Shown here in pieces: positions 33,601-36,348 of a stretch of 64,000 nt of DNA. Source of the DNA: Octopus vulgaris. Its lineage: Eukaryota. Under the pieces are notes generated by a model. It was not told the origin of the DNA. It saw only the letters and a list, made by a program, of their open reading frames with translations, and searched no databases. A program made the position numbers and the translations under genes. The first letter of the stretch is position 1. Each line of letters begins with the position of its first letter. Where the stretch lies: positions 10,106,001 to 10,170,000 of the forward strand of contig OX597843.1 of assembly GCA_951406725.2 (NCBI GenBank), read 5' to 3'.

Positions 33601-36348
33601 GTGCCACGCAGTGGGACTGAACCCGAATCCATGTAAGTATATATACATATACATATCTATATATATATATAATTGCAGCGTGGAAGGTGTTTGTAAGCCA
33701 TTTAAGAAACACATAAAAGCTGTTCGATTCACTTCAACATTTAAGTTTAATTTGTCAAAATATTTTCGTCGCTTTAAGACCGCGACCTGTTCACTGACAA
33801 AAATCTGTACTGCTTGGATTTTTGTCAGTGAACAGGTCGCGGTCTTAAAGCGACGAAAATATTTTGACAAATTAAACTTAAATGTTGAAGTGAATCGAAC
33901 GGCTTTTATGTGTTTCTTAAATGGCTTACAAACACCTTCCATGTTGCAATTATATGCTGTGCATAATGTCACTACTAACACACTGTACAATCACACAACA
34001 ACATCATCATCATTGTTCGACCGTGGTCGAGACAATGGAATTTACCATGCTACGTCAGACTTCACGGTCCATCATGGCATTACGGAGGTCCTGTTGCTGG
34101 ATGCCTGTATCCCTGGAGATTACATCAGGGTAGGAGAGTGTGCGCCCTCTGGTATTGCGAGTAGATGGCTTCCAGAGGAGAAGAGTAGAAATTACTTCTT
34201 TTTCAGCTCTACAACAATGTCCAGCAAACTGGACTCTCCTACCTTTCACAAGAGATGACACAGGTGGTAGTTTCCCATATATTTGTACTTTGGTTGGATG
34301 ACTCTTCCACGAGAGATTTTGAGCTCTCATAAGGAGGCGAGTGTAGGTTCCATCCAACTGCCTCTCAATGAGTGTGCGCCCTCTGGTATCGCGAGCAGAT
34401 GGCTTCCAGAGGAGAAGAGTAGAAATTACCTCTTTTTCAGCTCTACAACAATGTCCAGCAAACTGGACTCTCCTACCTTTCACAAGAGATGACACAGGTG
34501 GTAGTTTCCCATATATTTGCAACCAACAACACAAGGCTAACTACAACAACAATTGCATCAGCAACAATTATATGCTGACCAACTTTTATCGTGACATACC
34601 TTTCGGCTGACATATCTTCTCGCACTCCTCTTTAGATTCGTAACGGTTATTGTTGCCGCCACAGCCAGAGTAGAGGAACTTCTTGCAGCGACCTTCACCC
34701 ATGTTGTAGTACCATTTATACATAATGTCTGTGCACGACCCGACCTCCTCTTTCAAGTGGCAATAACGAGCTGTGGAGAAAAACAATTAAAGACTATATA
34801 TATATATATTGAACCATTGGGTCGGTCATTAGTTAAGTGTATCTCTACGTTGTATATATTTGAATCGAATTGCATATAACAATTTTAATTACAAAAAAAA
34901 ACTTTTGGCAACTACTGTATATATATTGATAAAACTGGTAAGACAACAAAAGAATGAAAGATACTTCAATATATTGTAAATAGAGGAATTTATCTGTAAA
35001 AGTAATATGTGACAATTATTTGGTAGCCATGATAAAACTCTGAGTTTCGGATGCCAAGGTGGAAATCCATGCCACCATCTCTTCAGTTATCTGGCCATCG
35101 GAAAAAATGCTATGAAAATCTGCTATATAAAAAATGGTATGAAAATCTGCTATATAAAAAATGCTATGAAAATCTGCTATATAAAAAATGGTATGAAAAT
35201 CTGCTATATAAAAAATGCTATGAAAATCTGCTATATAAAAAATGCTATGAAAATCTGCTATATAAAAAATGGTATGAAAATCTGCTATATAAAAAATGCT
35301 ATGAAAATCTGCTATATAAAAAATGGTATGAAAATTTTCATAGCATTTTTTCCGAGGGCCAGATAACTGAAGAGATGGTGGCATGGATTTCCACCTCGGC
35401 ATCCGAAACTCGGAGTTTTATCATGGCTACCGAATAATTGTCACATATTACTTTCACAGATAATATATATATATATGTATATATATATATATATATATAT
35501 ATATATGTATATATATATATATGTATGTATGTATGTATGTATATATATATGTATGTATGTATGTATATATAGATATAGATATATATATATAGTATATATA
35601 CACATACACACACACATATATATATAAAAGTGTATATATATATATATATATATATATATATAGATAGATATATATATATATATGTATGTATGTATGTATG
35701 TATATATATATATGTATGTATGTATGTATATATAGATATAGATATATATATATAGTATATATACACATACACACACACATATATATAAAAGTGTATATAT
35801 ATATATATGTGTACACACATACACACACACACACACACACACACACACACATATATATATATATATGTATACTCACACACACATACATATAAACATGCAC
35901 ATCACAAGCTTTGTTCAGTTTCTGTGAACCTAATTCACTGACAAGACATTTGCCTGGACTGAGGCTTACAGTAAAGAACACATGCGTCTAAGGTGCCATG
36001 CAGTGGGACTGAACTGGAAACCATTCGGTAGGGAAGCAAGCTTCTTAACCGTAGGGCCACACTTGCTCATATAAGAAAATCCAAAAGAACGCGTAGAGAA
36101 CTTACTGGAAACGACACGCAGTTCCGTTGTTGTCATTGTAGTTGCTGGAATGGTGAATGGAGTATAGGGGGTCCACTCGATCGATGACCCACACCTGAGA
36201 CGACATTCTTCGAAGGTCGCAAAACGGTTGGCATTGCCACCACATCCCCCATACACGAACATCTCACATTTACCCTTCAGTGTGTTGTGGAAATACTGCT
36301 CGATGTAGGCATAGCAGTGTCCCTTTTTCTTGGGCAACAGGCAGACAT
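543..36348 (-). CDS. PAPLN: Papilin-like multi-Kunitz/Ig/PLAC protein, 5'-partial, 13 coding exons
   Basis: Manually spliced exons join in one frame (2825 nt). Domain order Kunitz x9 - Ig x3 - PLAC - stop matches the C-terminal half of papilin/MIG-6/lacunin. The N-terminal TSP1/ADAMTS-spacer cassette is not seen, so the symbol is inferred from architecture. Confidence 0.8.
1230..2090. repeat. GA-rich minisatellite (about 30-bp unit)
   Basis: (gagagagattaagagagaaagattaaaaga)n. Confidence 0.9.
2206..2478 (-). CDS. Exon: Ig 3 (I-set)
   Basis: ccgcag|AT TCT CTC...AAA C|gtaag; 273 nt; [23 protein letters not shown]...[19 protein letters not shown]. Confidence 0.95.
4608..4719 (+). ncRNA. Type-I hammerhead ribozyme-like motif with long helix II
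   Basis: TAATCAC-CTGAAGA-[acacatctacatcgat...atcgatggtagatgggtc]-GAAACAACTGTA-GTGATTA; 7-bp helix I, canonical core, GUA site, followed by AATAAA. Confidence 0.75.
4989..5284 (+). mobile_element. Non-autonomous Helitron-like element
   Basis: A|TC...TATATAAAA 5' end, subterminal ccgagcaacgccagg motif, CTAG|T 3' end, no TSD; multicopy in this window. Confidence 0.75.
5570..6475. repeat. Compound CA-rich repeat
   Basis: (CA)n interrupted by ctcgtacacgtg/cttgtacacgtg motifs. Confidence 0.9.
6527..6799 (-). CDS. Exon: Ig 2 (I-set)
   Basis: ttccag|TG CCG GTA...CAG A|gtaag; 273 nt; [22 protein letters not shown]...NGTLFI...[11 protein letters not shown]. Confidence 0.95.
6950..7515 (+). mobile_element. 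RTE-like LINE 3' fragment, locally duplicated
   Basis: [19 protein letters not shown](T/M)[10 protein letters not shown], typical of the RTE ORF C-terminus; two copies separated by a SINE head. Confidence 0.65.
7547..8058 (+). mobile_element. tRNA-derived SINE family A (representative copy)
   Basis: A/B-box head tggctgtgtggtaag...ggttcagtccc, internal microsatellite, tail gaaacaagtaaaaga. Other copies at about 13421-13827(-), 19461-20140(+), 21779-22518(-), 28393-28797(-), 32424-32816(-), 32888-33226(-), 44138-44560(+), 54204-54566(+), 56160-56625(-), 58159-58520(+), 58562-58727(-). Confidence 0.9.
9050..10680 (+). mobile_element. Highly decayed RTE-like LINE interrupted by SINEs
   Basis: Degenerate peptides such as LLWELLF...[12 protein letters not shown] and [14 protein letters not shown] resemble RT and C-terminal RTE motifs; many stops and frameshifts. 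Confidence 0.4.
11117..11632 (+). mobile_element. Non-autonomous Helitron-like element
   Basis: A|TCTATATATATAAAA ... cccgagcaacgccggg cgatactgCTAG|T. Confidence 0.8.
11810..13147. repeat. 132-bp tandem array, about 10 copies
   Basis: Period of 132 nt (12851->12983); source of the spurious 44-aa repeat ORF. Confidence 0.92.
13154..13305 (-). CDS. Exon: second half of Ig 1
   Basis: cttcag|C AAA GAC...AAA G|gtaag; 152 nt, phase 2-1 fits both neighbours; [16 protein letters not shown] contains the Ig D-x-G-x-Y-x-C motif. Confidence 0.92.
14810..15782. repeat. (GAA/GGA)n trinucleotide tract of about 1 kb
   Basis: Direct inspection. Confidence 0.97.
15856..16204 (-). CDS. Exon: Kunitz 9 + linker + first half of Ig 1
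   Basis: ttacag|CA ATC TCC...AAT GG|gtgag; 349 nt, phase 1-2; [20 protein letters not shown]...[18 protein letters not shown] then [21 protein letters not shown]. Confidence 0.93.
16240..16680. repeat. (GGT/GAT)n low-complexity tract
   Basis: Direct inspection. Confidence 0.9.
16788..17293. repeat. A-rich minisatellite (tgaaaaatgaa motifs)
   Basis: Direct inspection. Confidence 0.88.
17310..17519 (-). CDS. Exon: Kunitz 8 + linker
   Basis: ctacag|AT ATC TGC...GGA C|gtaag; 210 nt; [51 protein letters not shown]. Confidence 0.95.
17775..19130. repeat. 123-bp tandem array (about 11 copies) derived from the 3' end of the adjacent CR1/L2 LINE
   Basis: Period 17898->18021; unit encodes the LINE C-terminus [31 protein letters not shown] plus the start of the 3' UTR. 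Confidence 0.93.
19028..19385 (-). mobile_element. CR1/L2-like LINE 3' fragment
   Basis: [25 protein letters not shown]...NTRRH.YKV...[17 protein letters not shown]. Confidence 0.85.
19490..19721 (+). mobile_element. SINE family B, full monomer nested in a family A head
   Basis: ggcggcgagctggcagaa head, gagttcaaattcc B-box, cctttcggggtcgataaattaagtaccag core; 15-bp TSD tgtgtggtaagtagc at 19475-19489 and 19722-19736. Confidence 0.9.
20170..20352 (-). CDS. Exon: Kunitz 7
   Basis: tttcag|GA GAA TCC...AAG G|gtgag; 183 nt; [51 protein letters not shown]. Confidence 0.95.
20373..20879 (+). mobile_element. Non-autonomous Helitron-like element
   Basis: Nearly identical to 11117-11632; TC...CTAG termini. 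Confidence 0.8.
20985..21460. repeat. 75-bp tandem repeat, about 6 copies
   Basis: caggaactagatggctttgataaaacaggg at 21201, 21276, 21351. Confidence 0.88.
21590..21765 (-). mobile_element. RTE-like LINE 3' fragment
   Basis: Manual translation [58 protein letters not shown]. Confidence 0.65.
22692..23079 (+). mobile_element. Non-autonomous Helitron-like element, second 5' subtype
   Basis: A|TCTCTCTCTATATAAACGGCAG ... shared 3' end CTAG|T. Confidence 0.75.
23143..23310 (-). CDS. Exon: Kunitz 6 (reading frame absent from the supplied ORF track)
   Basis: caccag|AT CTC TGT...CCA G|gtatt; 168 nt; manual translation [56 protein letters not shown]. Confidence 0.93.
23353..23966 (-). mobile_element. 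tRNA-derived SINE family C, head-to-tail dimer
   Basis: ggaggcacatggcctagtggttagagc...ggttcgaatc heads; 11-bp TSD catgtacaggt at 23342-23352 and 23967-23977. Relatives at about 13890-14080(-), 29325-29790(+, internal 59-bp repeats) and 42985-43260(-). Confidence 0.85.
24186..24590. repeat. (CAC)n(CAT/CGT)n microsatellite, expanded tail of a minus-strand family E element
   Basis: Direct inspection; abuts ttaacatccgctttccatgc. Confidence 0.9.
25148..26843 (-). repeat. Tandem array of SINE family B (184-bp unit, about 9 copies)
   Basis: Head-to-tail units joined at gacgaaatac|ctatttcttta; one complete head at the 26843 end. Confidence 0.92.
26940..27110 (-). CDS. Exon: Kunitz 5
   Basis: tttcag|AG GTG TGC...AAG G|gtaag; 171 nt; [51 protein letters not shown]. 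Confidence 0.95.
27544..27850 (+). mobile_element. Non-autonomous Helitron-like element
   Basis: Short subtype like 4989-5284; TC...CTAG|T. Confidence 0.75.
27893..28385 (+). mobile_element. CR1/L2-like LINE 3' fragment
   Basis: [39 protein letters not shown]...GHSEKL...[18 protein letters not shown]-repeat tail resumes after a SINE at 28797. Confidence 0.85.
28908..29162 (-). CDS. Exon: Kunitz 4 + Thr/Pro/Lys linker
   Basis: ccatag|AC GTC TGC...CCA G|gtcag; 255 nt; [51 protein letters not shown]. Confidence 0.93.
30152..30202 (-). ncRNA. Type-I hammerhead ribozyme-like motif
   Basis: Minus strand AGCTTC-CTGATGA-tttc tctt gaat-GAAACAG ttctagtc CTGTA-GAAGCT; canonical core, 6-bp helix I, 4-bp helix III, GUA site. 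Confidence 0.75.
30971..31911 (+). repeat. Tandem multimer of SINE family B (about 5 units) with TSD
   Basis: 16-bp direct repeat aggtatatgtacatgc at 30952-30967 and 31912-31927. Confidence 0.9.
31982..32206 (-). CDS. Exon: Kunitz 3 + Thr/Pro linker
   Basis: ttccag|AT ATG TGT...AAA A|gtgag; 225 nt; [51 protein letters not shown]. Confidence 0.95.
32209..32320. repeat. 16-bp minisatellite, about 7 copies
   Basis: (gaagagtggaatagta)n directly at the Kunitz 3 acceptor. Confidence 0.92.
33751..33801 (-). ncRNA. Variant hammerhead-like motif (G3-C8), mirror copy in palindrome arm
   Basis: Reverse complement of 33821-33871. Confidence 0.55.
33821..33871 (+). ncRNA. Variant hammerhead-like motif (G3-C8)
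   Basis: TTTGTCA-GTGAACA-g-GTCGC ggtcttaaa GCGAC-GAAAATATTT-TGACAAA; 7-bp helix I, 5-bp helix II, palindromic AATATT helix III. Confidence 0.55.
34003..34520 (-). mobile_element. RTE-clade LINE 3' fragment with internal duplication
   Basis: [57 protein letters not shown]...; (GAT)n tail; 34368-34520 repeats 34135-34285. Confidence 0.8.
34600..34770 (-). CDS. Exon: Kunitz 2
   Basis: ccacag|CT CGT TAT TGC...AAA G|gtatg; 171 nt; [52 protein letters not shown]. Confidence 0.95.
35031..35091 (-). ncRNA. Type-I hammerhead-like motif, mirror copy
   Basis: Minus strand GATAA-CTGAAGA-gatggtgg...ccacc...catcc-GAAACTCAGAGTT-TTATC. Confidence 0.65.
35362..35422 (+). ncRNA. Type-I hammerhead-like motif
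   Basis: GATAA-CTGAAGA-gatg gtgg catggattt ccac ctcgg catc c-GAAACTCGGAGTT-TTATC; canonical core, near-palindromic ACTC-g-GAGT helix III, GUU site. Confidence 0.65.
36106..36348 (-). CDS. Exon: Kunitz 1 + Thr/Pro linker
   Basis: ctgcag|AT GTC TGC...TCC A|gtaag; 243 nt, phase 1-1; [53 protein letters not shown]. Confidence 0.95.

What the first reader, a model, noticed from the sequence alone, without database searches (positions are those of the whole stretch)
33667..33955. 289-bp palindrome whose arms carry a hammerhead variant with a compensatory C3-G8 to G3-C8 swap
The core reads GUGAACA instead of CUGANGA, so both partners of the known tertiary 3-8 Watson-Crick pair are exchanged. It sits within a 7-bp helix I, a 5-bp helix II and a loopless palindromic AAUAUU helix III that needs dimerisation, with a UUU site. 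A double swap is what selection for the active fold predicts. On either strand the antisense arm is transcribed first, so the ribozyme would be masked in a 139-bp duplex. The inversion resembles PLE 5'-inversion/snap-back products. A non-inverted partial copy lies at about 11028-11110, truncated at a Helitron.
Basis: partly seen in the sequence, partly recalled or inferred. Interest (0 to 1): 0.72.

Follow-up and report, generated by a model that had tools for sequence, protein, structure and literature searches.

The report
Swapped-core hammerhead in Penelope double insertion
This palindrome is two short front ends of a common Penelope-type jumping gene joined head to head inside an intron, likely a routine insertion by-product, but each end carries a predicted self-cutting RNA whose paired core letters are swapped (C-G to G-C) in thousands of copies compared with sister elements.

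Summary
The palindrome and the G3-C8 hammerhead fold are confirmed. Each arm is the 5' leader, hammerhead and first 10 codons of an endonuclease-positive Penelope-like element (RT, Zn-finger motif, GIY-YIG). It lies in an intron of a Kunitz/Ig gene in a likely octopus genome. The swap is family-wide (4,250 exact copies). Sister families carry C3-G8 at the homologous site, so it is a real compensatory change, but one evolutionary event, and cleavage is untested. Among copies, positions 3 and 8 decay independently. Head-to-head form is routine (21 of 35 sampled events), and about 80 of 100 copies came from uncut RNA, so the 'masked ribozyme' is a by-product. The 11-kb copy is not cut by the Helitron. 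Two further results: short copies start about 23 nt before the core, often with an extra G (likely a capped start site); and 6 of 23 head-to-head pairs join two different subfamilies, which points to two RNA templates and not snap-back. The scan noted this swap three times before (two other places in this genome, one other genome). I found no natural G3-C8 hammerhead in the papers I could search; a key paper was not held.

The parts
33671..33815 (-). Left PLE copy, sense on minus: decayed leader from about -21, hammerhead, 5' UTR, first 10 codons; ends at the short 3' end (+123 from G3)
33816..33951 (+). Right PLE copy, sense on plus: starts at -12, hammerhead, 5' UTR, first 10 codons; also ends at +123 (no tail)
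33821..33871 (+). Predicted minimal type I hammerhead with G3 (33828) and C8 (33833), extra G 33835, palindromic helix III 33858-33863, predicted cut after 33864
   Evidence: activity not tested
33751..33801 (-). Second copy of the same hammerhead (G3 33794, C8 33789, U17 33758)
33921..33951 (+). Start of the PLE ORF (10 codons); the mirror copy starts at 33701 on minus
   Evidence: the same start runs on into the RT ORF in L213 and L216
33636..33670 (.). TA-rich microsatellite target on the left; 33952-33955 (ATAT) is target on the right
   Evidence: family copies end in (TA)n
10964..11111 (-). Solo copy of the same family, about 86% identical, with the tail but no hammerhead core; its 5' end falls at the predicted cut site
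11117..11632 (+). Helitron-like element (TC...CTAG ends between A and T; hallmarks recalled), inserted 5 nt beside the solo copy, not into it
34601..34762 (-). Kunitz-domain exon of the host gene, upstream of the palindrome in the direction of transcription
   Evidence: tblastn
32046..32207 (-). Next Kunitz-domain exon; the palindrome lies in the intron between the two
   Evidence: Pfam PF00014

Best explanation
The palindrome is two short copies of the front end (leader, hammerhead motif, first codons) of a Penelope-like retroelement joined head to head in a TA repeat, likely made in one insertion event, and its hammerhead carries a family-wide G3-C8 core that is predicted, not shown, to self-cleave. 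Shown: the arm is the 5' UTR and ORF start of an RT/GIY-YIG element; G3-C8 is the family's standard core; sister families have C3-G8 at the homologous place; head-to-head pairs are the usual form. Inferred: a promoter in the pLTR starts a capped RNA about 23 nt before G3. The element's protein nicks both strands of (TA)n and primes two cDNAs from the two internal start sites (about +123 and +180), often on two RNA molecules, and copies them to or near the cap. The cDNA ends join by microhomology. The copies lack the upstream leader and are inert intronic passengers; masking of the hammerhead by the hairpin is a side effect. In the source element the hammerhead would cut slowly, as a dimer or with protein help, and cutting is likely not needed for insertion.
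For: Hammerhead, ATG and ORF are continuous in L213 and L216. The ORF has the RT motif YVDD, a CxxxCxxC motif and GIY-YIG PF01541. Genome counts with fixed flanks: G3-C8 4,250; G3 with other 8: 223; other 3 with C8: 85; both changed 7, none C3-G8; reversed-pattern controls 0. Canonical-core pattern: 1,892 matches, control 17. Homology of sisters: a family with 53% protein identity has C3-G8 before an ORF start that aligns at 40% identity, E 1e-27. In 14 representatives all 14 keep a 3-8 pair (12 CG, 2 GC); 6 of 12 pairs show double changes; covariation score 0.27, reached by 0 of 500 shuffles. 21 of 35 independent events have an abutting inverted arm and only 5 of 35 keep the upstream leader. 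37 of 42 pairs have one short and one long 3' end; 6 of 23 young-subfamily pairs are mixed, 8.9 expected at random; the 8 pairs with the older loop type are all old-old. 12 of 14 arms that begin exactly at AG-ATG have an extra G in front. Literature: inverted 5'-truncated copies, one-sided tails and (TA)n bias are described for PLEs; a Poseidon protein nicks and extends both strands, has two internal RT starts, uses uncut RNA, and C3G/G8C partly rescues its hammerhead.
Against: No cleavage assay. The swap is one evolutionary event, and related sequences inflate the shuffle control. Rfam finds neither this motif nor a canonical sister. This locus is atypical: the only one of 42 pairs with two short ends, and both arms are the same subfamily, so a one-template origin is not excluded here. 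The pair sample was not random, and six further pairs read by eye are all concordant (6 mixed of 29 overall). In 6 of the 12 extra-G arms the G could come from the other arm. The boundary at -21 also looks like a splice acceptor. Sister-tail DNA homology exceeded shuffles in only part of the 30 loci, many being short copies. No reads span the locus.
Confidence: 0.8

Rival explanations
1. The G3-C8 motif keeps the hammerhead fold for a structural role (RNA pairing or protein binding) and cuts little or not at all in the cell.
For: About 80 of 100 sampled copies read through the hammerhead, and 4 of 19 truncated ones begin within 3 nt of the cut site, about 1.7 expected (counted by eye). The very young sister family has A9C in every copy inspected. 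C8-to-G is in excess: 45 of 100 changes at position 8 against 22 of 100 at a control C. Cleavage is dispensable for insertion in vitro in another PLE.
Against: The catalytic letters U4 G5 A6, G12 A13 A14 are invariant across families while helices covary, and the 3-8 pair was kept through a double change. The engineered G3-C8 partly restores activity.
Confidence: 0.3
2. This particular palindrome arose from one RNA by cDNA snap-back or later arm-to-arm conversion.
For: Both arms have the same loop II, the same short 3' end and only 3 differences. Most pairs are concordant, and some share rare variants in both arms.
Against: Mixed-subfamily pairs (6 of 23) and one-short-one-long ends (37 of 42) are not expected from snap-back.
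Confidence: 0.35
3. The locus is a functional, self-masked ribozyme switch or regulatory hairpin in the host intron.
For: It lies in an intron of a multi-Kunitz/Ig gene and would form a 139-bp duplex in the pre-mRNA.
Against: It is one of very many similar insertions; the sense arms face away from each other and cannot form the tandem dimer; nothing shows conservation of this insertion.
Confidence: 0.04
4. The palindrome is a fold-back read or assembly artefact.
For: No independent read spans it: 2 and 0 raw reads were laid, and contigs do not bridge it.
Against: The flanks differ on the two sides, the junction is asymmetric, the arms differ at 3 sites, and other pairs have arms from different subfamilies.
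Confidence: 0.02
5. The sharp 5' boundary of short copies marks a splice acceptor (spliced templates), not a transcription start.
For: A CUAAC, a pyrimidine run and YAG precede position -21. In D. virilis Penelope an intron ends at helix I.
Against: The 12 extra-G arms share nothing upstream of GAG, so no first exon is visible. No GT..AG joint appeared in contigs of 4 presumed RNA runs (contigs show presence only).
Confidence: 0.2

Closest known systems
Minimal type I hammerheads of metazoan Penelope-like elements (Cervera and de la Pena 2014, PMC4209133)
   Same: Located in the pLTR/5' end of a PLE; extra nucleotide between 9 and 10.1; G10.1-C11.1; palindromic 15.2-16.2 region; most copies are solo or in opposite-strand pairs.
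   Different: Core is GUGAACA (G3-C8). The passages read report C3-G8 and natural U3-A8 only. The extra nucleotide is G here, H in their consensus. Helix I is 7 bp, against 4-5 bp in their Schistosoma motifs.
PAc (Poseidon, Anolis) hammerhead and insertion chemistry (Frangieh et al. 2024, PMC11167929)
   Same: Hammerhead next to the ORF start; two internal RT starts that define a tail; AT-rich targets; uncut RNA is the main template.
   Different: G3-C8 there is an engineered double mutant with partial rescue; here it is the natural family state. Here the ATG lies about 55 nt after the cut site, not before it.
Endonuclease-positive PLEs with a linker Zn-finger (Neptune/Nematis type; Craig et al. 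2021, 10.1101/2021.04.23.441226)
   Same: RT, then CX2-5CxxC, then C-terminal GIY-YIG; inverted 5'-truncated copies; tail on one end; microsatellite bias.
   Different: Tail is about 55-60 nt here against 30-40 bp described. Clade not resolved by a tree here.
Natural 3-8 covariant hammerheads (U3-A8; Perreault et al. 2011, PMC3088659)
   Same: Natural compensatory change at the tertiary 3-8 pair.
   Different: A double transversion to G3-C8 instead of transitions to U3-A8.

Membership tests
Penelope-like element (EN+) | Single ORF with RT and C-terminal GIY-YIG endonuclease linked to this sequence | tested here: met
   (Pfam finds GIY-YIG; RT judged from YVDD and DKSG motifs, no Pfam RT hit)
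Penelope-like element (EN+) | 3' end of insertions repeats the 5' UTR and ORF start (pLTR), with an optional tail on one end | tested here: met
   37 of 42 pairs with one short and one long end
Penelope-like element (EN+) | Inverted 5'-truncated copy abutting the 5' end | tested here: met
   21 of 35 events
Neptune or Nematis clade | CX2-5CxxC motif between RT and GIY-YIG | tested here: met
   CQSNCAVC before the GIY-YIG domain
Neptune or Nematis clade | Placement in an RT phylogeny with named clade members | not tested
   no reference RT set was fetched
Minimal type I hammerhead of PLEs | Core CUGANGA...GAAA...UH | tested here: not met
   literal core is GUGAACA; U4 G5 A6 A9 G12 A13 A14 A15.1 U16.1 and H17 are present
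Minimal type I hammerhead of PLEs | Watson-Crick pair between positions 3 and 8 | tested here: met
   G3-C8 here, C3-G8 in sisters; 14 of 14 representatives paired
Minimal type I hammerhead of PLEs | Helices I and II, extra nucleotide after A9, G10.1-C11.1, palindromic helix III | tested here: met
Minimal type I hammerhead of PLEs | Self-cleavage, as a dimer or protein-assisted | not testable with these tools
   no assay; no peak of copy ends at the cut site; no raw RNA reads were offered
Rfam hammerhead families | Covariance-model match | tested here: inconclusive
   no hit for this motif and none for a canonical-core sister
Non-LTR retrozyme | Head-to-tail tandem units each with a hammerhead | tested here: not met
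   the two hammerheads here are on opposite strands
MITE / fold-back DNA transposon | Fixed unit with terminal inverted repeats mobilised as a whole | tested here: not met
   junctions and arm lengths differ from locus to locus; the one recurring junction rides inside a larger Helitron-like repeat

The most novel reading that the evidence does not exclude
Penelope elements insert as RNA dimers: two capped RNAs, paired through the hammerhead's palindromic helix III, are copied by a protein dimer from both nicks of a (TA)n site. This would explain head-to-head pairs with arms from different source elements and one tail per pair. The hammerhead would then be mainly a dimerisation signal with a slow cap-removing cut, and G3-C8 the first natural, thousands-fold amplified example of the third Watson-Crick solution at the catalytic 3-8 pair.
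Probability: 0.2. Interest if true: 0.75.

Novelty: new variant of a known kind. Interest (0 to 1): 0.48.

Why it matters
A natural G3-C8 core extends the known hammerhead sequence space beyond C3-G8 and U3-A8, and any search that fixes CUGANGA misses a family of more than 4,000 copies. Sister families in one genome with C3-G8-A9, C3-G8-C9 and G3-C8-A9 cores give a ready natural series for asking whether PLE hammerheads must cut. Mixed-subfamily head-to-head pairs offer genomic evidence on an open step of PLE insertion (how inverted ends form). The locus itself is an ordinary dead insertion.

Tried and rejected
Read support for the locus: two raw DNA runs gave 2 and 0 reads at about 3% sampling, and contigs of two runs did not span it; no test. 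Splicing or cleavage in RNA: only contigs of presumed RNA runs were available; no splice joint and no end pile-up, which proves nothing. Fossil of in vivo cleavage: the 11-kb copy begins at the cut site, but the genome sample shows no peak there (4 of 19 truncated ends within 3 nt, by eye). Covariation among copies: independent decay, so not a valid test. Palindrome as its own mobile unit: seven loci with one identical junction share kilobase flanks of a Helitron-like repeat and were counted as one event. Rfam: only hairpin-type miRNA matches over the palindrome in the 150 of 211 rows shown, nothing relevant. Cofold MFE of two monomers gave a swapped dimer without the helix III pairing, so it does not support the hammerhead dimer. 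A G3.G8 subfamily: G8 occurs in all loop types and mostly in one arm of a pair (7 of 9), so no single subfamily. Lunse et al. 2017 and Przybilski and Hammann 2007 were not held, so a prior report of natural G3-C8 there remains open. No protein homolog search, structure prediction or RT tree was run.
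Full report
Observation. The arms 33667-33805 and 33817-33955 are reverse complements at 136 of 139 positions around an 11-nt spacer. Each arm, read in its own sense, holds a type I hammerhead fold: 7-bp helix I, core GUGAACA, one unpaired G, 5-bp helix II, GAA, palindromic AAUAUU and a UUU triplet (G3 at 33828 on plus, 33794 on minus). The full unit folds into one long hairpin, so both motifs would be masked in a read-through transcript. 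The palindrome lies in an intron of a minus-strand gene with at least nine Kunitz exons and an Ig exon, between exons at 34601-34762 and 32046-32207.

What the arm is. [quoted passage not shown] In L213 and L216 the hammerhead is followed by an ATG that runs on into this ORF. So the arm is the 5' leader, hammerhead, 5' UTR and first 10 codons of a Penelope-like element, which is also what forms its 3' pLTR. Copies end in (TA)n at about +123 or about +180 from G3. These match the two internal RT starts and the tail described for PAc (PMC11167929, section 3 read whole).

The 3-8 swap. With fixed flanks the genome holds 4,250 G3-C8 copies, 223 with only position 8 changed, 85 with only position 3 changed and 7 with both changed, none of them C3-G8. 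Independent decay predicts 4.5 double changes, so copy-level variation is neutral and says nothing on selection. The informative comparison is between families. A canonical-core pattern finds 1,892 matches against 17 for the control. Thirty inspected loci show the same architecture, and a sister with 53% protein identity carries its hammerhead before an ORF start that aligns with ours at 40% identity, E 1e-27. In 14 hand-picked representatives the 3-8 pair is kept in all (12 CG, 2 GC), 6 of 12 pairs show double changes and the catalytic letters are invariant. This is one swap event, and relatedness inflates the shuffle control. Polarity (C3-G8 ancestral) rests on the canonical core being general, not on a tree.

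Evidence against strict need for cutting. Of the first 100 copies anchored downstream of the cut site, about 80 read through the hammerhead; 19 are truncated within it and 4 of these begin within 3 nt of the cut site, about 1.7 expected (counted by eye). The window's solo copy (10964-11111) does begin at the cut site, 5 nt from a Helitron-like insertion that did not truncate it, but it is one case. A very young sister family, with dozens of identical ORF segments, has A9C in all copies inspected. C8-to-G makes up 45 of the first 100 changes at position 8 against 22 of 100 at a control C in the same context (p about 0.001); this is unexplained.

How the palindrome forms. Of 40 copies taken in order along contig 1 (35 independent events after merging six Helitron-borne duplicates), 21 have an abutting inverted arm and 5 keep the upstream leader. 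Two-armed loci are slightly favoured by the sampling. Among 42 head-to-head pairs from all fetched loci, 37 have one short and one long 3' end; the window locus is the only short-short pair. Both loops could be called in 31 pairs: 14 and 3 are concordant for the two young subfamilies, 6 are mixed (8.9 expected at random among those 23), and 8 are old-old with no old-young pair. The two young loops differ by an indel and several substitutions, so mixed pairs need two templates or later conversion. Six more pairs read by eye are concordant, giving 6 of 29 overall. The simplest reading is priming at both nicks, on two RNAs in part of the events. For this locus a single template is not excluded.

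Where short copies start. Their 5' ends cluster at -19 to -26 from G3. Of 14 arms whose match stops exactly at AG-ATG, 12 have an extra G in front; in 6 of these the G cannot come from the other arm. A TATA-like run lies 30 nt upstream in long copies, though inside TA-rich sequence. This suggests a capped start about 23 nt before the core, copied to the cap. A splice acceptor at -21 is the rival; no shared first exon is seen, and contigs of four presumed RNA runs showed no splice joint.

Comparison with what is known. PMC4209133 (parts 1-2 of 4 read; supplements searched, one file not searchable) defines minimal PLE hammerheads with the extra nucleotide, G10.1-C11.1 and a palindromic helix III, low in vitro activity, and natural U3-A8. 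PMC3088659 (passages) reports natural U3-A8. PMC11167929 reports engineered C3G/G8C partial rescue, protein-assisted cutting and insertion from uncut RNA. 10.1101/2021.04.23.441226 (passages) describes inverted 5'-truncated copies, one-sided tails and the linker Zn-finger. PMC3884650, PMC6765202, PMC2377424 and PMC6155905 were seen as passages and 10.64898/2026.07.22.740005 as part 1 of 5. Searches found no report of a natural G3-C8 hammerhead; one search found none on two-RNA priming in PLEs (listing only). Lunse et al. 2017 and Przybilski and Hammann 2007 were not held, and may bear on novelty.

Verdict. The locus is an ordinary dead insertion of a known kind of element. The G3-C8 core is a real, family-wide variant of a known ribozyme class, untested for activity and already noted three times by this scan. 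The two-template and start-site observations are the additions here. Novelty: new variant of a known kind; interest 0.48.

Noticed in passing
window 6405-36349, minus strand: Host gene with at least nine Kunitz exons followed by an Ig exon, papilin-like by recalled domain order.
   Followed up: partly
L106-L112, L236-L249: A very young sister PLE family (1,312-residue frame, tandem array with 4.6-kb period on contig 19) has A9C in its hammerhead core, while older relatives keep A9.
   Followed up: partly
genome-wide; L152-L171, L220, L226: Excess of G3.G8 copies (about 2% of the family), spread over all loop subfamilies and present in two ORF-linked loci; a possible intermediate, template mixing or mutation hot spot.
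   Followed up: partly
L024, L178, L203-L206, L208: One head-to-head PLE palindrome was captured and amplified inside a Helitron-like element related to the one at window 11117-11632.
   Followed up: partly
G000:C28:5211097-5213510; L226, L228: Head-to-tail run of short family units about 175 nt apart, each with the hammerhead; a retrozyme-like arrangement that could form the tandem dimer.
   Followed up: no
window 58758-63900: Highly homogeneous tandem array, 135-nt period, 36 copies.
   Followed up: no
window 33540-33635 and 34000-34520: A SINE-like fragment on the left and duplicated LINE-like 3' ends on the right flank the palindrome (identification recalled).
   Followed up: no
sequencing-run search for window 33667-34100: Runs labelled as four different organisms hold 40% or more of the words, so relatives likely share these repeats; the stretch includes a second repeat, so this is not specific to the PLE.
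   Followed up: no
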